A stretch of DNA of 9,273 nucleotides from positions 1-9,273 of IMG/VR virus record IMGVR_UViG_2531839476_000009; one strand, written 5' to 3'. Position numbers and translations under genes: made by a program. This stretch comes from a virus (taxonomy: Duplodnaviria; Heunggongvirae; Uroviricota; Caudoviricetes). Under the pieces are notes generated by a model. That model ran no database searches and was not told the DNA's origin. It saw nothing but the letters and a program-made list of their open reading frames with translations. This document shows positions 1 to 9,273 of the stretch, piece after piece. Position 1 is the stretch's first letter; each line of letters opens with the position of its first letter.

Positions 1-1
1 A

Positions 2-571
2 ATGACCCCGAATTTTGCGACCACCATGACTAACGCGCTTGCGGGTAAGCAACCGAAGGATGCCACCCTGACGGCGCTGGCGGAGCTTGCTACATCAGCA
101 GATAAACTCCCATATTTTACAGGGGCAGATCGTGCCGCGTTAACCGCGTTGACAAGTGTTGGACGTGCCATTCTTGGTAAAACCAGCACTCAGGGAGTTC
201 TTGATTACCTTGGTTTGGGAGAAGCGGCGAAAAGGGATGTGGGCACAGGAGAAAATCAGATACCGGATATGTCAGCCTGGAAAAGAAATCCGAGTTCTAA
301 TCGCTGGAGAAAATTGCCTGATGGAACCATCATTCAAATGGGAATATCAGCATCAGGGCCATTAGGCTCACCTGTAAATATCACCCTGCCGATATCTTTC
401 AGCAATACCAATTATTGTGTTGTTGCATCGTACGATAATGCACGGTCAGGTGTGTCAACAATGGTTAGTTTTGCAGCGTTACCTGTTTCACCATCGCAAT
501 TTTCCCTGATGTCATCTGTGACTGAGCAAGGAATAAATCCTTTTGCTTACTGGATTGCTTTTGGAGATTAA
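2..571 (+). CDS. Tail fibre protein, C-terminal part (5' end lies upstream of the window); constant region up to about residue 72, then the currently expressed variable receptor-binding tip
   Basis: ORF open from the window start, stop TAA 569-571. The crossover site at 198-223 lies in frame inside it and encodes ...DYLGLGE.... It is directly followed by a tail-fibre assembly gene, the Mu S-U / P2 H-G arrangement. Confidence 0.85.
   Translation: MTPNFATTMTNALAGKQPKDATLTALAELATSADKLPYFTGADRAALTALTSVGRAILGKTSTQGVLDYLGLGEAAKRDVGTGENQIPDMSAWKRNPSSNRWRKLPDGTIIQMGISASGPLGSPVNITLPISFSNTNYCVVASYDNARSGVSTMVSFAALPVSPSQFSLMSSVTEQGINPFAYWIAFGD
198..223. repeat. Left crossover site for the serine DNA invertase (gix/pix/cix/hix-like, 26 bp)
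   Basis: ttcttgattaccttggtttgggagaa. Its inner half plus core forms a perfect 15-bp inverted repeat (210-224 ttggtttgggagaag) with 2062-2076. Imperfect dyad half-sites flank a central 2 bp, as in the Gin/Hin site family. Confidence 0.75.
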
Positions 572-574
572 TAA

Positions 575-994
575 ATGGATAGATACTTCTATTCACAAAA
601 AGAAAATGGTTTTTTTACCGATTTAAATAAAGCACCTTCAGATGCTGTTGAGATAACCACGGATGAATGGCTGTTACTACTGGATGGTCAGGATAATGGC
701 ATGAAAATAGTCAGCAATCAGGAGGGATATCCGGTTTTGACAGAGCAACCACCTTTATCAAAAGAAAACCTTATTGCATTGGCGGATTTGAAAAAAAGAA
801 AACTTATTAATGAAGCCAACGAGCACATGAACAGCAGACAATGGCCAGGTAAAGCGGCGATTGGTCGCCTGAAAGGTGAGGAACTGGCGCAATATAATTT
901 GTGGCTGGATTATCTGGACGCACTGGAACTGGTCGATACTTCCGGTGCGCCAGATATTGAATGGCCTACGCCTCCGGCAGTTCAGGCCAGATGA
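575..994 (+). CDS. Tail fibre assembly protein (chaperone for the + orientation fibre tip)
   Basis: ATG at 575, 4 nt after the fibre stop. C-terminal motif ...LWLDYLDALELVDTSGAPDIEWPTPP resembles the conserved Tfa C-terminus. Sits where Mu U / P2 G would be. Confidence 0.8.
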   Translation: MDRYFYSQKENGFFTDLNKAPSDAVEITTDEWLLLLDGQDNGMKIVSNQEGYPVLTEQPPLSKENLIALADLKKRKLINEANEHMNSRQWPGKAAIGRLKGEELAQYNLWLDYLDALELVDTSGAPDIEWPTPPAVQAR

Positions 995-1571
995 CGTCCG
1001 GCGCTGTGCTGGTATCTGTTGCCGTCACCGCGTCAATGTAATCCAGCACAGCGTTAAGTCGGGGGTTTTCTGTCTGCATCAGCTTCCGCCCGGCCTGCAA
1101 TTTCAGTTGAATCAGACTAATGGAAGCCATTGCAGTATCAATCAGTGACTGACGCTGTGCTTCTGCCGCGCCTACTGCGGCGCTATGCTGTGCCTCAGTA
1201 TCTGTCACCCATTTCTCACCATCCCATTCATCGTATGGCGTTAACGGGGCGATAGTGGTTGTATTTTCAGGATAATCACCCGGAGCTGTGATTTCTTTCG
1301 ATTCTCCTGTTTCGGTGCTATAGATGATTTCACCGCGATGGTCTGGCACATATTCCCATGAGTTAAAATCTGCAGAACGGCAGATTGCATAACCAGCTTT
1401 ATGTGTAACTGGTGCATCTAAACAAGAACATGCCGGGATACCGACGCCGACAGCGAGATATTCAGTTGATGTAGAAATATATTCCCGCGTTTCACCATCA
1501 TAATTATAAACGGTAATATCTCCCGCTTTTATGGCAATGAGTTCGCTATTTAATACAGCTTTATTCATCAT
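966..1571 (-). CDS. Tail fibre assembly protein (alternative, for the - orientation fibre tip)
   Basis: N-terminus MMNKAVLNSELIAIKAGDITVYNYDGETREY... and C-terminus ...LNAVLDYIDAV...APDVIWPELP are typical of enterobacterial Tfa/gpG-family proteins. Start overlaps the upstream fibre stop (ATGA). Confidence 0.85.
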   Translation of the reverse strand: MMNKAVLNSELIAIKAGDITVYNYDGETREYISTSTEYLAVGVGIPACSCLDAPVTHKAGYAICRSADFNSWEYVPDHRGEIIYSTETGESKEITAPGDYPENTTTIAPLTPYDEWDGEKWVTDTEAQHSAAVGAAEAQRQSLIDTAMASISLIQLKLQAGRKLMQTENPRLNAVLDYIDAVTATDTSTAPDVIWPELPEA

Positions 1572-2088
1572 GCGGCCCTTACAATATAATTAAAAGCGAT
1601 GTTACGAGGACGAGTTTCTGTACCTACATTTTCACTAATTTCACCATAACGTTTAACACTACGAGAGCTAATAGCTCGTAGTGAGGAAGGCACATTAAGA
1701 CCGGGTTCGTCCGTTTTAACTATTCCCCCGTCACCGTATGTAGCCAGTATTCCTGGGTTTACTCCTTCCCGTGCACTTCCTGCGGCGAGTCCGTCCCCTG
1801 TCCATAATTCCATATAGTGTGCATGGTCCAAAATTGTGTGTGGCTGCCAATTAAGCAAAGCGCGACCAGTATCAATCCCGCGACCGTCATCCCAGCCACG
1901 AATAAATTCACCGCGTAAATCAGGCAATTTATTGGTCGGGTAAGCCTTTGCCAGTTCCGGGTATTCTTCAGCAGAAAAAGCCGCACCATTGCATTTCAGC
2001 CAGCCTGTTGGCGGAGTGGCTGAAGGCCACGGAACAGGCACCCCAACCGGTAATGCAGAGCCTTCTCCCAAACCAACGTTTAAGAAAA
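1568..2088 (-). CDS. Alternative tail-fibre variable C-terminal cassette (promoterless here; would fuse to the constant fibre region after inversion)
   Basis: Reading frame runs through the right crossover site and encodes the same LGLGE junction as the expressed fibre. Contains a tail-collar-like motif (PVGVPVPWPSATPPTGWLKCNGAAFSAEEYPELAKAYP). The ATG at 2116 in the ORF track is unlikely to be a real start. Confidence 0.8.
2063..2088. repeat. Right crossover site for the serine DNA invertase (26 bp)
   Basis: ttctcccaaaccaacgtttaagaaaa, 14/14 identical to the reverse complement of the inner half plus core of the left site. Lies 55 bp upstream of the invertase ATG. Confidence 0.75.
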
Positions 2089-2143
2089 TGCAGAGATTAC
2101 GGCTAACTGGCATCATCCCCGGTTTTTATTCAGGGGATCCATC

Positions 2144-2743
2144 ATGCTTATTGGCTATGTCCGCGTATCAACAAATGACCAGAATACAGAATTGCAGCGT
2201 AACGCGCTGGAGTGCGCAGGATGTGAACTAATTTTTGAAGATAAAATCAGCGGAACGAAATCAGCCAGACCGGGATTGAAAAAACTGATCAGAACGCTAT
2301 CAGAAGGAGATACGCTGGTTGTCTGGAAGCTGGACAGACTGGGCAGAAGTATGAAACACCTGATCACGCTTATTGAGGAATTGCGGGAAAAAGGTGTTAA
2401 TTTCCGTAGTCTGACGGACAGCATTGACACATCAACACCCATGGGGCGTTTCTTTTTTCACGTCATGGGGGCTTTAGCCGAAATGGAACGTGAATTAATT
2501 GTAGAGCGTACACTGGCCGGGCTGGCAGCAGCACGCGCACAAGGACGCATTGGCGGACGTCGCCCGAAGTTGACAAAAGAACAACACGAGCAAATAGCGA
2601 GGTTGATTAAAAACGGTCATGACAGGAAACAACTGGCGATCATTTACGACATCGGCATATCGACGATTTATCGTTATCACCCTGTAGGCGATATACAGGC
2701 TGAAGAAACAACCAGGCAGACTCAGGAAAATGAAAACCGCTAA
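2144..2743 (+). CDS. Site-specific DNA invertase, serine recombinase of the Gin/Pin/Cin/Hin family
   Basis: N-terminus MLIGYVRVSTNDQN... with catalytic-serine motif, ...VVWKLDRLGRS..., ...GRFFFHVMGALAEMERELI...RIGGRRPKLT... and a C-terminal helix-turn-helix region. SD aggggat lies upstream of the ATG. Very close to Gin/Pin as I recall them. Confidence 0.95.
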   Translation: MLIGYVRVSTNDQNTELQRNALECAGCELIFEDKISGTKSARPGLKKLIRTLSEGDTLVVWKLDRLGRSMKHLITLIEELREKGVNFRSLTDSIDTSTPMGRFFFHVMGALAEMERELIVERTLAGLAAARAQGRIGGRRPKLTKEQHEQIARLIKNGHDRKQLAIIYDIGISTIYRYHPVGDIQAEETTRQTQENENR

Positions 2744-2769: not shown

Positions 2770-3264
2770 TCAAAACAGCCCTTTAACGGAGCTGGCCGCG
2801 CTGTTAAGGGATGATGTGACCTTATCTTTGAAGCCGGACAGCATATCACTGAACGATGAGGATTGCAGGCGCTCCCGCAAATCCTCATCACAGCGTTCAA
2901 GGGTCAGTGAAAATTCTATCTTTTTCGCCTTACCGTAGCGATCAAACTCGGAACGGGTCGTATTCGTTCCAGTCAGGACATACATGCCGTAAATCTGCCC
3001 GACGCCATCAATCAAAGGCCAGGGTCGTCCTGTATAAGCCTGCGTGGTCAGCAGCGACAGCGACACTTCGCCACCTGTAATTTCAGGATAAAGCACACCA
3101 GAAAGAACGATGCGATCATCACCTGCACCGATATACTGCCAGCTTGCTGAACGGTTAATGCGTTCATTTTTCACATGCCGCCAGCTTTTGTTTTGCTGTA
3201 ACTGCTGATGCGGCAGCGTGCGCAGCTCAAAAACAAACATGCCGTAGATCATCATCATGGCCAT
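2770..3264 (-). CDS. Tail protein gpU-like
   Basis: 164 aa. N-terminus ...MMMIYGMFVFELRTLPHQQLQ...SWRH... and ...IEFSLTLER... resemble P2 gpU. Lies immediately downstream of the tape-measure gene. Confidence 0.9.
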   Translation of the reverse strand: MAMMMIYGMFVFELRTLPHQQLQQNKSWRHVKNERINRSASWQYIGAGDDRIVLSGVLYPEITGGEVSLSLLTTQAYTGRPWPLIDGVGQIYGMYVLTGTNTTRSEFDRYGKAKKIEFSLTLERCDEDLRERLQSSSFSDMLSGFKDKVTSSLNSAASSVKGLF

Positions 3265-3270
3265 GACTCC

Positions 3271-6086
3271 TCAATCTTTATCGTAAAAACTGCCACGCCC
3301 GGCACGGGCGCGCCGTTCCATTTCTGCCCTGACCATTTCACCGACCAGTTTCGCCAGTTCGCGGGGATTCTGCGTAACAACGTTATGCAGATGAACATGA
3401 ATTTCACCACCAAATTCGGAGGCAACAGGCTCCCGGTTACGGGAAGTTACAGGAACTGATGCCACTGGAGATCGTATAGCCTCCGCCACCGGGCGGGAGC
3501 TGGCCGCAACAACAGTGACCAGCGCCGGAGGCAGCGGAGCCGGGACCACGGGTGTGATATTAATTGCGGGGGCAGGCTTACTGACCTGCGCAATCTTCCG
3601 CTCCTGCCACTCCCCACGAACAGCAAGTGCGCGGGGCAGGTTCTTAAAGACAATATCGCCGGGGCCAATGCGTTTTTTCGTCTCATCAACCAGCTTACCT
3701 GTGTTATCAGCAATTTTGCTGAGTCTGCGTAGCGTCCCGGTATTGCTGTCTGTGAGCGGTTTGTTGTCTTTGGGTTTATCACCTCCGGTGCCATTGCCAT
3801 TTTCCACAGGCTTCGGCGGATTGATTTTCGCAAGGTCCCCCTGAAGCAAGGCAACCTTGTCCTGAAGAATGGCCGCACGCTGTGCGTCTTCGATTTTCTT
3901 GCGCGCCTTTTCCGCTTCATCCGGAAGGACGCCAAGTTTTTCAAGTATCCACGCCAGCGTATCCAGTAGCATTTTTGCAGGTGTCAGAACAAGCTGTAAC
4001 GCACCGCCAAGAACGTTACCGAATATCTCGCCAGCACTGGTACATTTATCCAGCGTTTCCTTGCTGGACTCCATCGGTGACAGCAGCGATTTAAACCAGT
4101 TAAACACCTGGCTGATCCCGCTTCCGATTGCGTCAAAAACAGGACCAAACCGTTCAAAGGTTTCGCGCAACGGGGTCAGCCTTTCCATAATCCCGCTGAA
4201 CACCCCGGCAAAAATGCCCTGATGGGATCCCAGTATTTCCAGATAAGAACGGCAGCTCCGGCAAGCGCAGCCACGATAAGACCAACCGGACTGAACAGCG
4301 CCCCGATAGCGCCTCCCAGTAAAGAAACGGAACCCGTCACCATTCCCCATAGTGCTGGCAGGACCCTGACAGCATTCATTGATCCGGTCAGGAGAGAAAA
4401 ACCAAGACGCAGTTTTGCCAGCGGACCAGCAAGCACACCAATAGCCAGCGACAACGAGCCAACCGTTGCAGTCATTGCCAGCAACGCACCGCCTGCTATC
4501 AGTAGCTGGCGCGTCAGTGCCGGATGGGCCTGCGCCAGCGCCGTCACCCTTGATACCACCCGCGCGAGCCACTGCGTGACAGAACGCAGCGGACCGTCAA
4601 TCAGATCTGCAATGCGGATGCGCAACCCTTCCCATGCACTGCCGAGTGATTTCAGATCGCCGTCAAGGTTGTTGGCCATAACCTTTGCTGTGCGTTCAGC
4701 CTCACCGCGCGCGCCTTCAAGTTCTTTTCTCAGTTTGGGTAAGGAACCGTCACCCGCTGCATCAACGAGCGCCATAAACGATGTGAAAGCCTCTTCTCCG
4801 GCAATGTCCTTAAAGAACGATACCCGGTCAACTTCCCCGTATTTGCGGGTGGCTTTATAAAGGTCGGCCAGCACATCCTCCATCGGGCGCATTTTGCCCC
4901 CGGCATCCGAGACGGACACGCCCAGCTCTTTCAGAGCTTCTGCCGCCGCCTTTGGCGGTGATGCCAGACGAGCCAGGCTGGCACGCATTGCCGTCCCGGC
5001 ATCACTCCCTCTGATGCCCATATTCGCCAGCACGCCAGCCATCGCTGCGGCCTGCTCCAGCGATATTCCCAGCTTACCCGCCACCGGACCTGCATATTTC
5101 ATGGTTTCGCCCAGTGCGCGAAGGTCAGTGTTGGTACGGGTAAACGCTGCGGTGAGTGTGTCACCGACCCGGTCCATCTGGTCAGCAGAAAGGCCGAACT
5201 GCGTCAGGATATTTGAGCCAATATCCGCCGTCTCGCCGAGATCCATGCCGCCAGCCGTTGCCATGCTCAGCACGCCCGGAAGCGCAGCCTGAATGGCCTG
5301 CGGTGTGAAGCCAGCCATTGCAAGAAATGCCTGCCCACTGGCGGCATCGCCTGCGGTGAACTGCGTTTCAGAGCCAAGTTTTAACGCCTGCTCACGCAGC
5401 GCCTTAAACTGCGGGCTGTTCTGGTCGATTCGCGTCAGTGCCTGAACGCGGGACATCTCTTTCCCGAACCCGATCGCAGGCTGCAAAAAACGCCCGGCAG
5501 CATAGCCGCCAGCCGCTGCCGCACCAATTGCCAGCGCACCACCTGTTTTCAGTTTTCCCGCGGTTTCCTGCGCGCGCGAATACCGCTCACGCGCCCGCGT
5601 TACACGCGCAAGCGCCTGCCGTTCGCGTTCAAGCTGGTTGTTGTACTGTTCGGTGCGTCTGATGGCCTGCTGGATGGTGTTATCGCTGCCTGTCAGGGAA
5701 ATGCCGTGGCGTTTCAGCTCTCCGCCAAGCTCCCGCATTTTCTGAATTTCCCGTGTACGCGATTCATTCAGGCGTTCAAGCCGGGTGCTTAACTGCTGCA
5801 TCAGCTTTTGTTGTTTTTCGCTGAGCACTGTACCCGTGCGTTGTAACTGATTAAGGGCGTTAAGCTGGCGTCGTGCTTTCACGACGCCAGCATCCGCTTT
5901 ACTGACAGCGTCGCGGGCGCGCTCAAATGATCGCGCCTGACGCTCGAGATTTTTGATCGCCCCCTGCGTTCGCTGGATGGAGTCACCAAACTGCCCCATC
6001 AGGCGGCGGGCGTTTTCGGCAGGTCGGGTCAGCCTGTCAACGGCGCTGAAAGCGACCCGGATATCAAGAGTCTTCATTGTCTGCAT
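3271..6086 (-). CDS. Tail tape measure protein (gpT-like); reading frame interrupted by a 1-nt frameshift near 4210-4214
   Basis: Two overlapping ORFs (4176-6113 and 3271-4572) in different frames. Both carry tape-measure-like sequence; the upstream piece ends in a hydrophobic segment and the downstream frame only reads sensibly from about 4200. Start is probably the ATG at 6086 or 6077, overlapping the E' stop; the track start at 6113 is a GTG. Confidence 0.85.
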
Positions 6087-6593
6087 TCCCGCTGCGAAGT
6101 GCCGCCCGCTCACGCCAGCTAACCACTTCGCCGGGCGTCATCATGAAGATTTCGGCGGGCGACCAGTTAAAAATGGCGGCAATATCCGCCACAAAGTCTT
6201 CTATGTGCTCAAAGCACACAACCGTGATCAGGCTTCCGTCGCCTGTTCGTTCTTCCCGCCAGAGTCCGCACCGCTCAAAAAATTTACGGCAACCACACAT
6301 AACTGAATAAAGTCACGGGATGCCATTTTTTTGATCGTCACTTCATCCAGTCGCGGTGATGTCACGCGTGACAGCAGCGTAAACATGGATTCCGCTTTCA
6401 GATTCAGCACATCAGACAGCGACAAATCTCGCAGAGATCCAGCCTGCTCAATAGCCCCGGTGATCTCCACATACGTGATTTTTTCGCCGCCTCGCTCAAT
6501 GGGTTGGGTAAGTTTTACGCCACGCTCACTGGTTTCTTTCACAGTGTCAGTAACTACCGTGTTTTCGGTATCGATGTTTTTCGTCTCTTTCAT
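6064..6593 (-). CDS. gpE+E' tail assembly chaperone fusion produced by programmed -1 ribosomal frameshift (about 176 aa)
   Basis: E ORF (6228-6593) and E' ORF (6064-6300) overlap with E' in the -1 frame. The slippery heptamer T TTT TTG sits in the zero frame inside the overlap. Position is immediately upstream of the tape-measure gene, as for P2 E/E' and lambda G/GT. Confidence 0.7.
6228..6593 (-). CDS. gpE-like tail assembly chaperone (non-frameshifted product)
   Basis: 121-aa ORF with SD aaggag 8 nt upstream of the ATG, located between the tube and tape-measure genes. Confidence 0.85.
   Translation of the reverse strand: MKETKNIDTENTVVTDTVKETSERGVKLTQPIERGGEKITYVEITGAIEQAGSLRDLSLSDVLNLKAESMFTLLSRVTSPRLDEVTIKKMASRDFIQLCVVAVNFLSGADSGGKNEQATEA
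6276..6282 (-). promoter_or_regulatory. Slippery heptamer T TTT TTG for the E/E' -1 frameshift
   Basis: Minus-strand sequence aaT TTT TTG agc read in the E frame as N-F-L-S; after a -1 slip the E' frame reads F-F-E-R-C-G-L. Confidence 0.7.
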
Positions 6594-6614
6594 CAGGAAA
6601 CTCCTTTCAGTCAG

Positions 6615-6635
6615 AGGCGACGCACTGCGTCGCCT
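6615..6635 (-). other. Intercistronic hairpin between tube and gpE genes (possible mRNA-stability or attenuator element)
   Basis: aggcgacgc-act-gcgtcgcct, a 9-bp perfect stem with no following U-tract on the coding strand. Confidence 0.35.
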
Positions 6636-6647
6636 GCATATTACTTA

Positions 6648-7159
6648 TCAGCCAAGCCCAAGCGCGGAACGGATGCGATCGGGCACAATGTCCTTGCCGT
6701 CCTTCCGGTAGATGTGGTTCAACAGGTCGATTTCCCACAGCGGGCGATCGTTAACGCTCAGCTTGTAGTAGGTGTTTTTGACAGCGTAAGTGTGTGATGT
6801 GGCTTCGCCCTGTTTGGCTTCCCCCATATCAATTTCCGTCACACGCCCGCGCATCTCGATTTCATACAGATCGCTTTCTGCATCGGTGTAGTATTCACCC
6901 GCAAAACGCAGCAGCGTGCCGTCAATCGTGCCGCCATACTTAAGGAACAGCTCACGAACTGCGCCCCCCATGACAAAGCTCGCATCAAGCGCGGAGTCAT
7001 CCAGGCCGAGATCAATACTTACCGCTCCCATCATGCCACACCCCGGTAGCTGTCGGTTTTGCGCGTCAGCTTAGGCAAAGTGACGGACGTCACCTTACCC
7101 ACTTCGTTTTCACCATCCACAAACAGCGTAAAAAAGCGAAGATGTTTTGGCACAGCCAT
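6648..7159 (-). CDS. Tail tube protein (FII-like); reading frame interrupted by a 1-nt frameshift near 7038-7045
   Basis: The 128-aa ORF (6648-7034) contains ...DLGLDD...LRFAG...EIEMRGR..EIDMGEAKQGE..., resembling P2 FII but without its N-terminus. The missing N-terminus (MAVPKHLRFFTLFVDGENEVGKVTSVTLPKLTRKTDSYRG) is encoded in another frame, starting at an ATG at 7159-7157 that overlaps the sheath stop (TGATG). Confidence 0.85.
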
Positions 7160-8343
7160 CAGGCACCTCCCAGCACCGCAAATGCGGGGCCAAAGAATTC
7201 ATCAGTAAACGTCTGGTAAAGCTCCATGTCTTCCAGCGGGGGAACAGGCGTATATTTGTAGCGAATACGCACACGCCCCTGACGTAAATCCGTGGTGCTG
7301 TTATCCACCACGTCATACCAGCACTCCGCGCCAATCAGTTTCCCGGCAGTAACCAGTGAATCCAGTTTTGCCCTGATGGCACTGATAACATCCTTCACGT
7401 TCGCAGGCGTCAGTGGACTGTCGATGGTTTCAAACTGCGCTTCCGCAATTGAATCAGCCAGCACCTGTGCGGTTCGGGTATACACCTCAAAGATGTAGGC
7501 GTTCGTTTCCGGTGTGCGGTTGCCCCAGAAGCGGAACCCGTTGCGACGAATAATGGTCGTGATTTCTTTGTTGTTGAGGCTGTTGGCATCGCTGTCTTCG
7601 GCCTGCAACGACCAGAACACTTGCCTCGACATCCCCAGCACATTTTTAACCGGAACGTTGGACAGTGATTTGTGCCACCCCTGCTCAATGGTCAATGTAC
7701 GCACGAAGGCCGCACGCATAAGCAGGCGCGGGGAACGTTCGTTTTTGCCACTTTTCGGGTTGTAGGCGATGAAGTCCGGCCATAAGAGCATCACCTCACG
7801 TTCGTTGAATTTCTGGCGGTAGGTAATCGCCTCAGCCATCGTGTTACAGCCGTGACAGGAGGCATACACAAACGCGCGCAGTTTACCTGCAATCACGCAC
7901 ACGGATTTTGTTACCGCCTCCGTGTCCAGCTCCGGCGCGGCCAGAATACGCGGACGGTATCCGATGCTTTCATCCTGCTCTGCAACAAGCAGCGCATACA
8001 TCCCCGTATAGCTGCCGTCATCCTCAGAACCACCGATAACCAGTTGATCCTGCGTTTTTCCGTCTTCTTCTTTGTGTTCAGCCACGCGAACGACGATCAC
8101 CTTTGTGCTCACCTGGTCTGCGATGGCCTTAAGCGCACGATAAAGCGTCCCCGTTGTTCCGCATTTTCCCAGCACGTCATTGACGCGGGTCAGCAGTGTG
8201 GGCTTGTTCAGCGGGAACAGCTCCGCGTCCGCATCATCCGCCGTTGCCACGATACCGATAACACTGGAATCAACATCATTAATCGCTGTTACCAGGTCGG
8301 TACTTTCCGTAACACGGGCACCATGAAAACGAGTTTCACTCAT
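7159..8343 (-). CDS. Tail sheath protein (FI-like)
   Basis: 394 aa. Motifs ...FPLNKP..., ...RILA.P.LDT..., ...LLWPDF..., ...EQGWHK.LSN..., ...IRRNGFRFWGNRT..., ...YTRTAQV..., ...YKYTPVPPLE... resemble P2 FI. SD aagggg lies upstream of the ATG. Confidence 0.95.
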   Translation of the reverse strand: MSETRFHGARVTESTDLVTAINDVDSSVIGIVATADDADAELFPLNKPTLLTRVNDVLGKCGTTGTLYRALKAIADQVSTKVIVVRVAEHKEEDGKTQDQLVIGGSEDDGSYTGMYALLVAEQDESIGYRPRILAAPELDTEAVTKSVCVIAGKLRAFVYASCHGCNTMAEAITYRQKFNEREVMLLWPDFIAYNPKSGKNERSPRLLMRAAFVRTLTIEQGWHKSLSNVPVKNVLGMSRQVFWSLQAEDSDANSLNNKEITTIIRRNGFRFWGNRTPETNAYIFEVYTRTAQVLADSIAEAQFETIDSPLTPANVKDVISAIRAKLDSLVTAGKLIGAECWYDVVDNSTTDLRQGRVRIRYKYTPVPPLEDMELYQTFTDEFFGPAFAVLGGA

Positions 8344-8500: not shown

Positions 8501-9241
8501 ATGACCGACACCACCATGCAATTGCTCAGTCAGGGCACAGACCCCGTGAAAATGCCGGATTTTGATATTCTCGCGGAGGGTAAAACGCTGTCAGGCGTGG
8601 CAGAGCGCCTGATGAGCCTGTCACTGACCGACAACCGGGGATTTGAAGCGGACCAGCTCACCATCACGCTGGATGATGCGGATGGTCAGTTGCAGCTACC
8701 GCCACGGGGCGCGCGCCTGACGGTTCTCATTGGCTGGAAAGGAGAACCGCTGACAGAAAAAGGCACTTACATTGTTGATGAAATCGCTCACGAAGGACCG
8801 CCGGACAGGCTGACTGTTTCAGCCAGAAGCGCAGATTTTCGGGATGAATTTAACGTTAAACGTGAGGTGTCCTGGCATGATGTGACCGTTGAGCGTGTGG
8901 TATCCGCCATCGCTCATCGGTATGGTCTGAAACCGCAAATCAGCGAAATGCTGATGGATATCGAAATCGACCACGCCGACCAGACCGAAGAAAGCGACAT
9001 GTCCTTCCTTACGCGCATGGCGGAAATGCTGGGCGCAATCACCACGGTAAAAAGCGGTAATCTGTTATTCATCATGCCCGGTGGTGGCGTGAACGCACAG
9101 GGCCAGCCGTTGCCATCGTTCGCCATCACACGCAGCAGCGGCGATCGCCATCAGTTCCGCATTGCTGACCGCGAGGCGTATACGGGGGTACGCGCTTACT
9201 GGCTTGATCTTAATTACGGGAAAAAGAAAAAGTCAGCGTGA
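8501..9241 (+). CDS. gpD-like tail protein (late control gene D family), N-terminal 246 aa; possibly truncated
   Basis: ATG at 8501 preceded by SD gggaggg. Motif ...LSLTDNRGFEADQLTITLDDADGQLQLPPRGARLTVLIGWKG... is typical of gpD/VgrG-type N-terminal domains. The in-frame Met at 8369 in the ORF track lacks an RBS. Confidence 0.8.
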   Translation: MTDTTMQLLSQGTDPVKMPDFDILAEGKTLSGVAERLMSLSLTDNRGFEADQLTITLDDADGQLQLPPRGARLTVLIGWKGEPLTEKGTYIVDEIAHEGPPDRLTVSARSADFRDEFNVKREVSWHDVTVERVVSAIAHRYGLKPQISEMLMDIEIDHADQTEESDMSFLTRMAEMLGAITTVKSGNLLFIMPGGGVNAQGQPLPSFAITRSSGDRHQFRIADREAYTGVRAYWLDLNYGKKKKSA

Positions 9242-9273
9242 AACGCCGCAAACCGCCAAAACCGAAAAAGAGA

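What the first reader, a model, noticed from the sequence alone, without database searches (positions are those of the whole stretch)
9218..9273. gpD-like gene stops after 246 aa at an A-rich run while the +1 frame stays open to the window end
P2 gpD is, as I recall, roughly 390 aa. Here the ORF ends ...YWLDLNYGKKKKSA* directly after gggaaaaagaaaaag (A5 runs at 9221-9225 and 9227-9231). One extra A would continue the frame as ...KEKVSVKRRKPPKPKK... to the window edge. Together with the tube and tape-measure breaks this makes three homopolymer-associated frame disruptions in 9.3 kb.
Basis: inference. Interest (0 to 1): 0.4.

Follow-up and report, generated by a model that had tools for sequence, protein, structure and literature searches.

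The report
One-base loss breaks prophage gpD gene
A tail-hub gene (gpD) of a common P2-family E. coli prophage is cut short because one A is missing from a run of six, which is most likely a base-counting error in an old draft assembly or else an ordinary inactivating mutation, not a programmed recoding signal.

Summary
The gpD-like ORF runs 8501-9241 (246 aa, ...GKKKKSA*), with A5 runs at 9221-9225 and 9227-9231, and the other frame stays open to the end. Intact relatives (phage P88 / Xuanwuvirus prophages, 366-369 aa) read GGGAAAAAGAAAAAAGTC. The window lacks one A from the second run (A6 to A5), and the restored frame matches them exactly (GKKKKVSVKRRKPPKPKK...).

The window is a whole 9,273-bp contig of a draft assembly (AKNI01000029.1), so it cannot be extended. 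A second A6-to-A5 loss sits at 9265-9269. The contig also has four single-base indels seen nowhere else, in the tape measure, tube and sheath (two).

The short allele is in about 0.3% of complete E. coli genomes (2 against 644) and in none of the isolated phages. It recurs on several unrelated backgrounds. It clusters in one cohort of draft genomes and in contigs that carry other frameshifts.

No stimulatory RNA structure follows the site, and the split layout is not conserved. My estimates are about 0.6 homopolymer miscall, 0.35 real pseudogenising deletion and under 0.05 recoding. Interest is low.

The parts
8501..9241 (+). Truncated gpD (baseplate hub / 'late control D') ORF of 246 aa, corresponding to residues 1-244 of the 369-aa intact protein plus two out-of-frame codons and a stop.
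   Evidence: Translation. Pfam PF05954 Phage_GPD scores 29.7 bits over profile positions 48-207 of 305. The ORF is 99% identical to the intact WP_000132833-type gene.
9221..9232 (+). AAAAAGAAAAAG, the break point. Relatives have AAAAAGAAAAAAG, so one A is missing from the second run (9227-9231).
   Evidence: Alignments; uniqueness.
9239..9241 (+). Premature TGA reached after the shift. It overlaps a GTG (9238-9240) from which gene callers start the orphan 123-aa C-terminal ORF in other assemblies.
9232..9269 (+). Continuation of gpD in the -1 frame (VSVKRRKPPKPKK), identical to intact relatives.
9265..9269 (+). Second A6-to-A5 contraction (parent CCGAAAAAAGAGAAAAGC, window CCGAAAAAGAGA), four bases from the contig end. 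It is shared only with L010.
4206..4210 (-). A6-to-A5 contraction (plus-strand letters) that splits the tape-measure gene into 633-aa and 310-aa ORFs. It is unique to this contig.
7037..7039 (-). Loss of one G from GGTGGTGGC (coding strand) that splits the tube gene into 42-aa and 128-aa ORFs. It is unique to this contig.
7687..7737 (-). A +A / -T pair that puts sheath residues 203-219 out of frame while keeping the ORF at 394 aa. It is unique to this contig.

Best explanation
The gene is an ordinary gpD (tail baseplate hub) gene of a P88-like (Xuanwuvirus, P2-family) prophage. Its reading frame is broken by the loss of one A from an A6 run inside a lysine-rich, length-variable loop. It is not a recoding site. 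As written it encodes a 246-aa fragment that lacks the last third of the hub fold. The most likely origin is a homopolymer-length undercall in this short contig from a draft assembly, so the strain's real gene would be intact at 369 aa. Shown here: the deletion, its position, the intact state of nearly all relatives, and the association of the short allele with a particular assembly cohort and with other frameshifts. Inferred: that the cause in this particular contig is sequencing error rather than mutation.
For: 1. The window is the entire 9,273-bp contig AKNI01000029.1 of GCA_000268205.1.
2. Three of about ten runs of 6 or more bases in 7.1 kb are one base short, all A6 to A5. Three further single-base indels are present. 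Four of these indels occur in no other assembly: the resulting sheath and tape-measure products are each on record only from this contig in a collection of about 15 billion proteins. The two other contigs that share the tube fragment lack the deletion.
3. In complete E. coli genomes, exact 82/83-mers give A5GA5 against A5GA6 counts of 1 against 374 on the window's background and 1 against 270 on the ST131-type background. One of the two short-allele records is annotated 'frameshifted'.
4. In IMG/VR there are 5 A5GA5 contigs against at least 120 A5GA6 contigs. All 5 come from one block of isolate-genome ids (2526-2534xxxxxx), against 18 of 120 for A5GA6 (Fisher p = 1.4e-4). They lie on at least four different sequence backgrounds, so they are independent events.
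5. The three NCBI protein accessions shown for the exact 246-aa product are EGW70769.1, EHV23785.1 and EIQ70434.1; the one source name shown is E. coli STEC_C165-02. The NCBI draft assemblies found to encode it are AFDR01, AIFQ01 and the window's own AKNI01.
6. A5GA5 loci carry frameshifts in other tail genes more often than A5GA6 loci do: 4 of 16 against 3 of 112 (p = 0.005). Two of them also have split ftsK and one a split rarA, which marks those assemblies as error-laden.
7. L022, from the same id block, has a -1 and a +1 in neighbouring A runs of the same loop.
8. Isolated phage P88 has an intact 366-aa gpD. Among the other phage records, all those with the longer match are intact; the only broken ones are two predicted prophages riddled with frameshifts.
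Against: The same double contraction (both A6 runs), with 190 nt identical to the window, occurs in L010 (GCA_974498925.1). In that assembly the tape measure, tube, sheath and flanking host genes are all intact. This argues for a real, heritable allele. Single A5GA5 alleles also occur in otherwise clean assemblies (L011-L014). I could not see reads, coverage or the sequencing platform. That the cohort is a homopolymer-error-prone one rests on my own recollection of those projects, not on a tool result. Six indels in 9.3 kb is also high for a consensus error rate and would fit a decaying prophage.
Confidence: 0.6

Rival explanations
1. This is a real inactivating mutation. Replication slippage removed one A from the A6 run, and later another from the second A6 run. 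gpD is then a pseudogene in a prophage that is decaying and has since picked up further frameshifts in the tape measure, tube and sheath genes.
For: The two-deletion haplotype is shared exactly with L010, an independent and otherwise clean assembly whose upstream gpD sequence differs from the window. The parent allele is identical over 281 nt apart from the two missing As, and occurs in at least 15 listed complete genomes (47 records at 99% identity or more). Clean assemblies with the single deletion exist (L011-L014). RefSeq annotates the same allele as a frameshifted pseudogene in strain EC04. Multiple hits in one prophage are what relaxed selection would produce.
Against: The four other indels are unique to this contig in a very large collection. 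The short allele clusters in one assembly cohort on unrelated backgrounds. It is nearly absent from complete genomes (2 against 644). The number of substitutions unique to this contig is modest (20 in 7.1 kb against 8 relatives) beside 4 unique indels.
Confidence: 0.35
2. The break is tolerated or used. Ribosomes slip -1 on G_AAA_AAG (9226-9232) and make full-length gpD. Alternatively, the two halves are made separately, with the C-terminal half restarting at the GTG that overlaps the TGA, and they assemble into a working hub. Few hub copies are needed per tail, so a low yield might be enough.
For: In the 0 frame the site reads GGG_AAA_AAG_AAA_AAG, which contains two A_AAG motifs. A_AAG is described as -1 shift-prone in E. 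coli (PMC5009743, read). A -1 slip at the second motif would give GKKKKVSVKRR..., identical to the intact protein. The stop overlaps a GTG (GCGTGA). The break lies in a variable loop that is largely absent from the R2 pyocin homologue. The exact 246-aa product is on 165 contigs, many with otherwise intact prophages at different attachment sites.
Against: The split layout is not conserved: it is found in about 0.3% of complete genomes, and phage P88 is intact. The region downstream is less structured than shuffled sequence (z = +1.3; 188 of 200 shuffles fold at least as well). I see no strong Shine-Dalgarno-like sequence upstream of the slip site or of the GTG (sequence inspection). The heptamer is not of the X_XXY_YYZ form. 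In this window a second deletion 38 nt downstream would need a second, independent slip. The short allele is associated with error-laden contigs.
Confidence: 0.04

Closest known systems
gpD / 'late control D' baseplate hub proteins of P2-family phages (Pfam PF05954), here the Xuanwuvirus (phage P88) form; structural homologue is the R2 pyocin hub protein, PDB 6U5H chain C
   Same: The N-terminal 244 residues are 99% identical to intact E. coli prophage and P88 gpD. The intact relative aligns from residue 18 to 356 with 6U5H_C (E = 5.7e-41). The gene context is the standard one for this phage group: sheath, tube, E/E', tape measure and U on one strand, D and ogr on the other.
   Different: The window's copy stops at residue 246 and lacks Pfam profile positions of about 218-304, which relatives encode in the next 123 codons.
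Homopolymer-length errors in draft assemblies, and frameshifted pseudogenes at short mononucleotide runs
   Same: The change is a single-base contraction of an A6 run. It is sporadic on unrelated backgrounds, enriched in particular assembly cohorts, and co-occurs with other frameshifts, including in essential host genes in some assemblies.
   Different: No difference of kind. The only open point is whether this particular copy is an error or a mutation.
Programmed -1 ribosomal frameshifting (E. coli dnaX A_AAA_AAG; the tail chaperone pair G/GT of lambda and E/E+E' of P2)
   Same: There is an A-rich, AAG-ending site in the 0 frame, with a stop two codons downstream, as in dnaX. The window also contains a true example for comparison: T_TTT_TTG at 6282-6276 on the minus strand, in the E gene.
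   Different: The two-frame layout is not conserved, no stimulatory structure follows the site, and the heptamer is non-canonical (G_AAA_AAG). Nearly all relatives encode the protein in a single frame.

Membership tests
Phage_GPD (PF05954) baseplate hub | Significant match to the family profile or to a solved member, across the fold. | tested here: met
   The truncated ORF scores 29.7 bits, just under the 30.1-bit cut-off, and covers only profile positions 48-207. An intact relative that is 99% identical scores 63.7 bits over positions 48-304 and matches 6U5H_C at E = 5.7e-41.
Phage_GPD (PF05954) baseplate hub | A complete coding sequence able to give the whole hub protein. | tested here: not met
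   A stop follows codon 246. The C-terminal 123 codons are in another frame, and a second 1-nt loss lies at 9265-9269.
Xuanwuvirus (P88-like) prophage tail module | Gene order and orientation: fibre segment, invertase, then U-T-E'-E-FII-FI on the opposite strand, then D and ogr. | tested here: met
   ogr itself lies beyond the contig end.
Programmed -1 ribosomal frameshift site | Slippery heptamer X_XXY_YYZ in the 0 frame. | tested here: inconclusive
   The site is G_AAA_AAG, present twice. It contains the shift-prone A_AAG tetramer but is not a canonical heptamer.
Programmed -1 ribosomal frameshift site | The two-frame gene organisation is conserved among homologues. | tested here: not met
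   Counts are 2 against 644 in complete genomes and 5 against at least 120 in IMG/VR, and phage P88 is intact.
Programmed -1 ribosomal frameshift site | A downstream stimulatory structure or an upstream SD-like stimulator. | tested here: not met
   The minimum free energy is -8.3 kcal/mol against a shuffle mean of -11.8 (z = +1.3). Only a 4-bp hairpin is predicted.
Programmed -1 ribosomal frameshift site | A measured frameshift product. | not testable with these tools
   This needs a reporter assay or a western blot.
Transcriptional slippage site or phase-variable mononucleotide tract | A long run (about 8-9 or more) with frequent on/off length variants in the population. | tested here: not met
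   The runs are A5/A6. The variant frequency is about 0.3% in complete genomes.

The most novel reading that the evidence does not exclude
The A5-G-A5 allele is a leaky frameshift allele that persists in natural prophages. A -1 slip on A_AAG would regenerate exactly the wild-type hub protein, and only a few hub copies per tail are needed. The allele could then act as a natural dimmer on tail production, or the two gpD halves could work as separate subunits.
Probability: 0.04. Interest if true: 0.45.

Novelty: not a real feature. Interest (0 to 1): 0.08.

Why it matters
It matters mainly as a caution. The A5-G-A6 stretch in the lysine-rich loop of this very common E. coli prophage gene is a recurrent site of one-base length differences. 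Automated annotation therefore yields a 246-aa 'gpD' and an orphan 123-aa 'late control protein' in hundreds of contigs. Anyone who scores prophage intactness, or who mines for recoding sites, should not read this as biology without read-level support. If the deletion is real in this strain, it only means that this prophage can no longer build tails, which is common and expected.

Tried and rejected
1. Extending the window downstream is impossible. The window is the whole contig. I used relatives instead.
2. I looked for the window's own lineage through exact look-ups of its sheath, tube-fragment and tape-measure-fragment proteins. The sheath and tape-measure products are on record only from this contig. 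Two metagenome contigs share the 128-aa tube fragment, but only because of a scaffold gap and a contig end, and they do not carry the deletion.
3. I looked for viable phages with the split gene. P88 has an intact gpD. The only broken copies in the phage collection are two predicted prophages (520873, 503458) that are riddled with other frameshifts.
4. A 91-nt query across both A runs against complete genomes found nothing, probably because of low-complexity masking. I repeated it with 281 nt.
5. An exact scan of IMG/VR for the second deletion gave 0 hits.
6. The RNA fold showed no stimulatory structure. Rfam and tRNA scans of the window found nothing.
7. Literature searches turned up no report of recoding in gpD and no paper citing the assembly accession.
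8. I tried to judge the quality of assembly L010 from its host flanks, without a decisive result.
9. I considered a +1 shift in the intact allele that would make a dnaX-like short product. I rejected it because no +1-prone motif is present.

Full report
**What is in the sequence**

An ORF starts at ATG 8501 and ends at TGA 9239-9241. It encodes 246 aa ending ...YWLDLNYGKKKKSA*. The string AAAAAGAAAAAG lies at 9221-9232, which gives A5 runs at 9221-9225 and 9227-9231. The neighbouring frame reads ...KEKVSVKRRKPPKPKKR to the last base. That frame is the one reached by adding a base to the DNA, or by a -1 ribosomal slip. It is open for only about 20 codons, so its openness alone would mean little.

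**What the gene is**

The ORF matches Pfam Phage_GPD over profile positions 48-207 of 305. The window is the tail module of a P2-family prophage:
- two opposed tail-fibre tip and assembly cassettes, with a serine invertase;
- gpU, tape measure, E/E', tube and sheath on the minus strand;
- gpD on the plus strand.

DNA similar to the gpD region occurs in 1,380 of 5,426 complete E. coli genomes. It also occurs in phage P88 and other Xuanwuvirus records, with the same gene order and with ogr and hok downstream of D. Intact gpD in these relatives is 366-369 aa. It aligns from residue 18 to 356 with the R2 pyocin hub protein 6U5H_C (E = 5.7e-41). The break falls in a lysine-rich loop that varies in length among relatives (KPPKPKK or KPKK). 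The loop is mostly gapped against the pyocin protein.

**The lesion**

Intact relatives read TACGGGAAAAAGAAAAAAGTCAGC (A5-G-A6), giving GKKKKVSVKRRKPPKPKKEKSSS.... The window has A5-G-A5. One A is missing from the second run, and the downstream frame is identical to the intact protein.

There is also a second contraction. The parent allele, seen in complete genomes that are otherwise identical over 281 nt, has CCGAAAAAAGAGAAAAGC. The window has CCGAAAAAGAGA, four bases from its end. One added A would therefore restore only 13 codons.

**The window cannot be extended**

An exact look-up of its sheath protein shows that the window is the complete contig AKNI01000029.1 (9,273 bp) of draft assembly GCA_000268205.1.

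**Other damage in the contig**

Compared with relatives at 97-98% identity, the window has:
- an A6-to-A5 loss that splits the tape measure, at about 4210;
- loss of one G from GGTGGTGGC that splits the tube, at about 7038;
- a +A (7687) and -T (7737) pair that puts sheath residues 203-219 out of frame.

These four indels are absent from all eight relatives aligned. The sheath and tape-measure products occur in no other assembly of the large protein collection. In all, 3 of about 10 runs of six or more bases are one base short.

**How common the short allele is**

| Collection | A5GA5 (short) | A5GA6 (intact) |
|---|---|---|
| Complete E. coli genomes, window's background (exact 82/83-mers) | 1 | 374 |
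| Complete E. coli genomes, ST131-type background | 1 | 270 |

- The complete genomes give about 0.3% overall. One of the two short-allele records is annotated 'frameshifted'.
- All five IMG/VR short-allele contigs come from one block of isolate-genome ids, against 18 of 120 intact ones (Fisher p = 1.4e-4). They sit on at least four different sequence backgrounds.
- One of them (L022) has a -1 and a +1 in adjacent A runs of the same loop.
- The exact 246-aa product is on 165 contigs. The three NCBI accessions shown for it are EGW70769.1, EHV23785.1 and EIQ70434.1. The NCBI drafts found to encode it are AFDR01, AIFQ01 and AKNI01.
- Loci with the short allele carry frameshifts in other tail genes more often: 4 of 16 against 3 of 112 (p = 0.005).
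- Two of those loci also have split ftsK and one a split rarA, so those assemblies are plainly error-laden.
- Phage P88 has an intact gpD.

**Interpretation**

The short allele arises again and again on unrelated backgrounds at low frequency, and it tracks particular assembly cohorts and error-laden contigs. That is the pattern of a homopolymer miscall hotspot.

Real deletions probably also exist:
- several otherwise clean assemblies carry the single deletion (L011-L014);
- one clean assembly (L010) carries exactly the window's double deletion, with 190 nt identical to the window.

For this contig I put about 0.6 on artefact and 0.35 on a genuine pseudogene in a decaying prophage. The sharing with L010 discriminates less than it first seems. 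A contig in which 3 of 10 A6 runs are short would often hit both gpD runs by error.

**Recoding**

The mutant reads GGG_AAA_AAG_AAA_AAG in frame. A_AAG is described as a -1 shift-prone tetramer in E. coli (PMC5009743). A -1 slip at the second A_AAG would regenerate exactly the wild-type sequence, and the stop overlaps a GTG that could serve as a restart codon. Some leakiness is therefore conceivable for single-deletion alleles.

Several findings argue against a programmed site:
- the two-frame layout is not conserved;
- the downstream RNA is less structured than shuffled sequence (z = +1.3);
- the heptamer is not canonical;
- this window would need two independent slips.

I give recoding about 0.04. 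By contrast, the window holds a genuine programmed site. T_TTT_TTG at 6282-6276 (minus strand) lies in frame in the E gene, and its -1 frame runs into the tape-measure start.

**Verdict**

This is an ordinary gpD gene with a one-base contraction of an A6 run. It is most likely an assembly error and otherwise a routine prophage pseudogene. Interest is low.

Noticed in passing
window 6228-6593 (minus strand); heptamer at 6282-6276: This looks like the genuine programmed -1 frameshift of the tail chaperone pair (P2 E / E+E'). T_TTT_TTG lies in the 0 frame of the 121-aa ORF. The -1 frame then stays open up to the ATGA overlap with the tape-measure start at 6077.
   Followed up: partly
window 1-2743: An invertible tail-fibre segment. 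18-nt inverted repeats at 207-224 and 2062-2079 (94% complementary) flank two opposed fibre-tip plus Tfa cassettes (2-571 and 575-994 on plus; 1568-2116 and 966-1571 on minus). A Gin/Cin/Pin-type serine invertase gene lies next to them at 2144-2743.
   Followed up: partly
window 7687-7737 (sheath gene, minus strand): A compensated +A / -T pair puts sheath residues 203-219 out of frame (RSPRLLMRAAFVRTLTI instead of TFPAPAYACGLRAYIDH) while the ORF keeps its 394 aa. This protein is unique to the contig in the protein collection.
   Followed up: yes
window 2770-8343 compared with 8501-9241: The sheath-tube-E-T-U block is on the opposite strand to D and ogr, unlike in P2 itself. This is the conserved layout of P88-like (Xuanwuvirus) prophages, not a rearrangement of this contig.
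   Followed up: yes
L002, L004, L005, L147 (RefSeq annotation of intact relatives): Many records annotate the intact gpD only from an internal start (801 nt, 'contractile injection system protein, VgrG/Pvc8 family') together with a 93-nt antisense partial pseudo-CDS. The gpD DNA of one such record (L002) is nearly identical to a record annotated with the full 1,110-nt gene (L001). This is an annotation inconsistency.
   Followed up: partly
L008, L010, L011, L012 (between gpD and ogr): Relatives carry variable cargo between D and ogr: SIR2 plus DUF87, a PIN_4 protein, and unknown ORFs of 340 and 384 aa. The prophages also sit at different attachment sites (serS, ihfA/pheST, fabB/flk, uvrC). This looks like the P2-type hotspot for defence genes.
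   Followed up: no
window 8394 and 8434: Two substitutions (G for C, and C for G) in the sheath-gpD intergenic region are found in none of the relatives compared.
   Followed up: no
L009 15631-16286: In the STEC_C165-02 draft, which also has the short gpD allele, the response-regulator gene next to uvrC (probably uvrY, by my reading of its position) is split into 166-aa and 51-aa ORFs. This may be another frameshift error or mutation in the same era of drafts.
   Followed up: no
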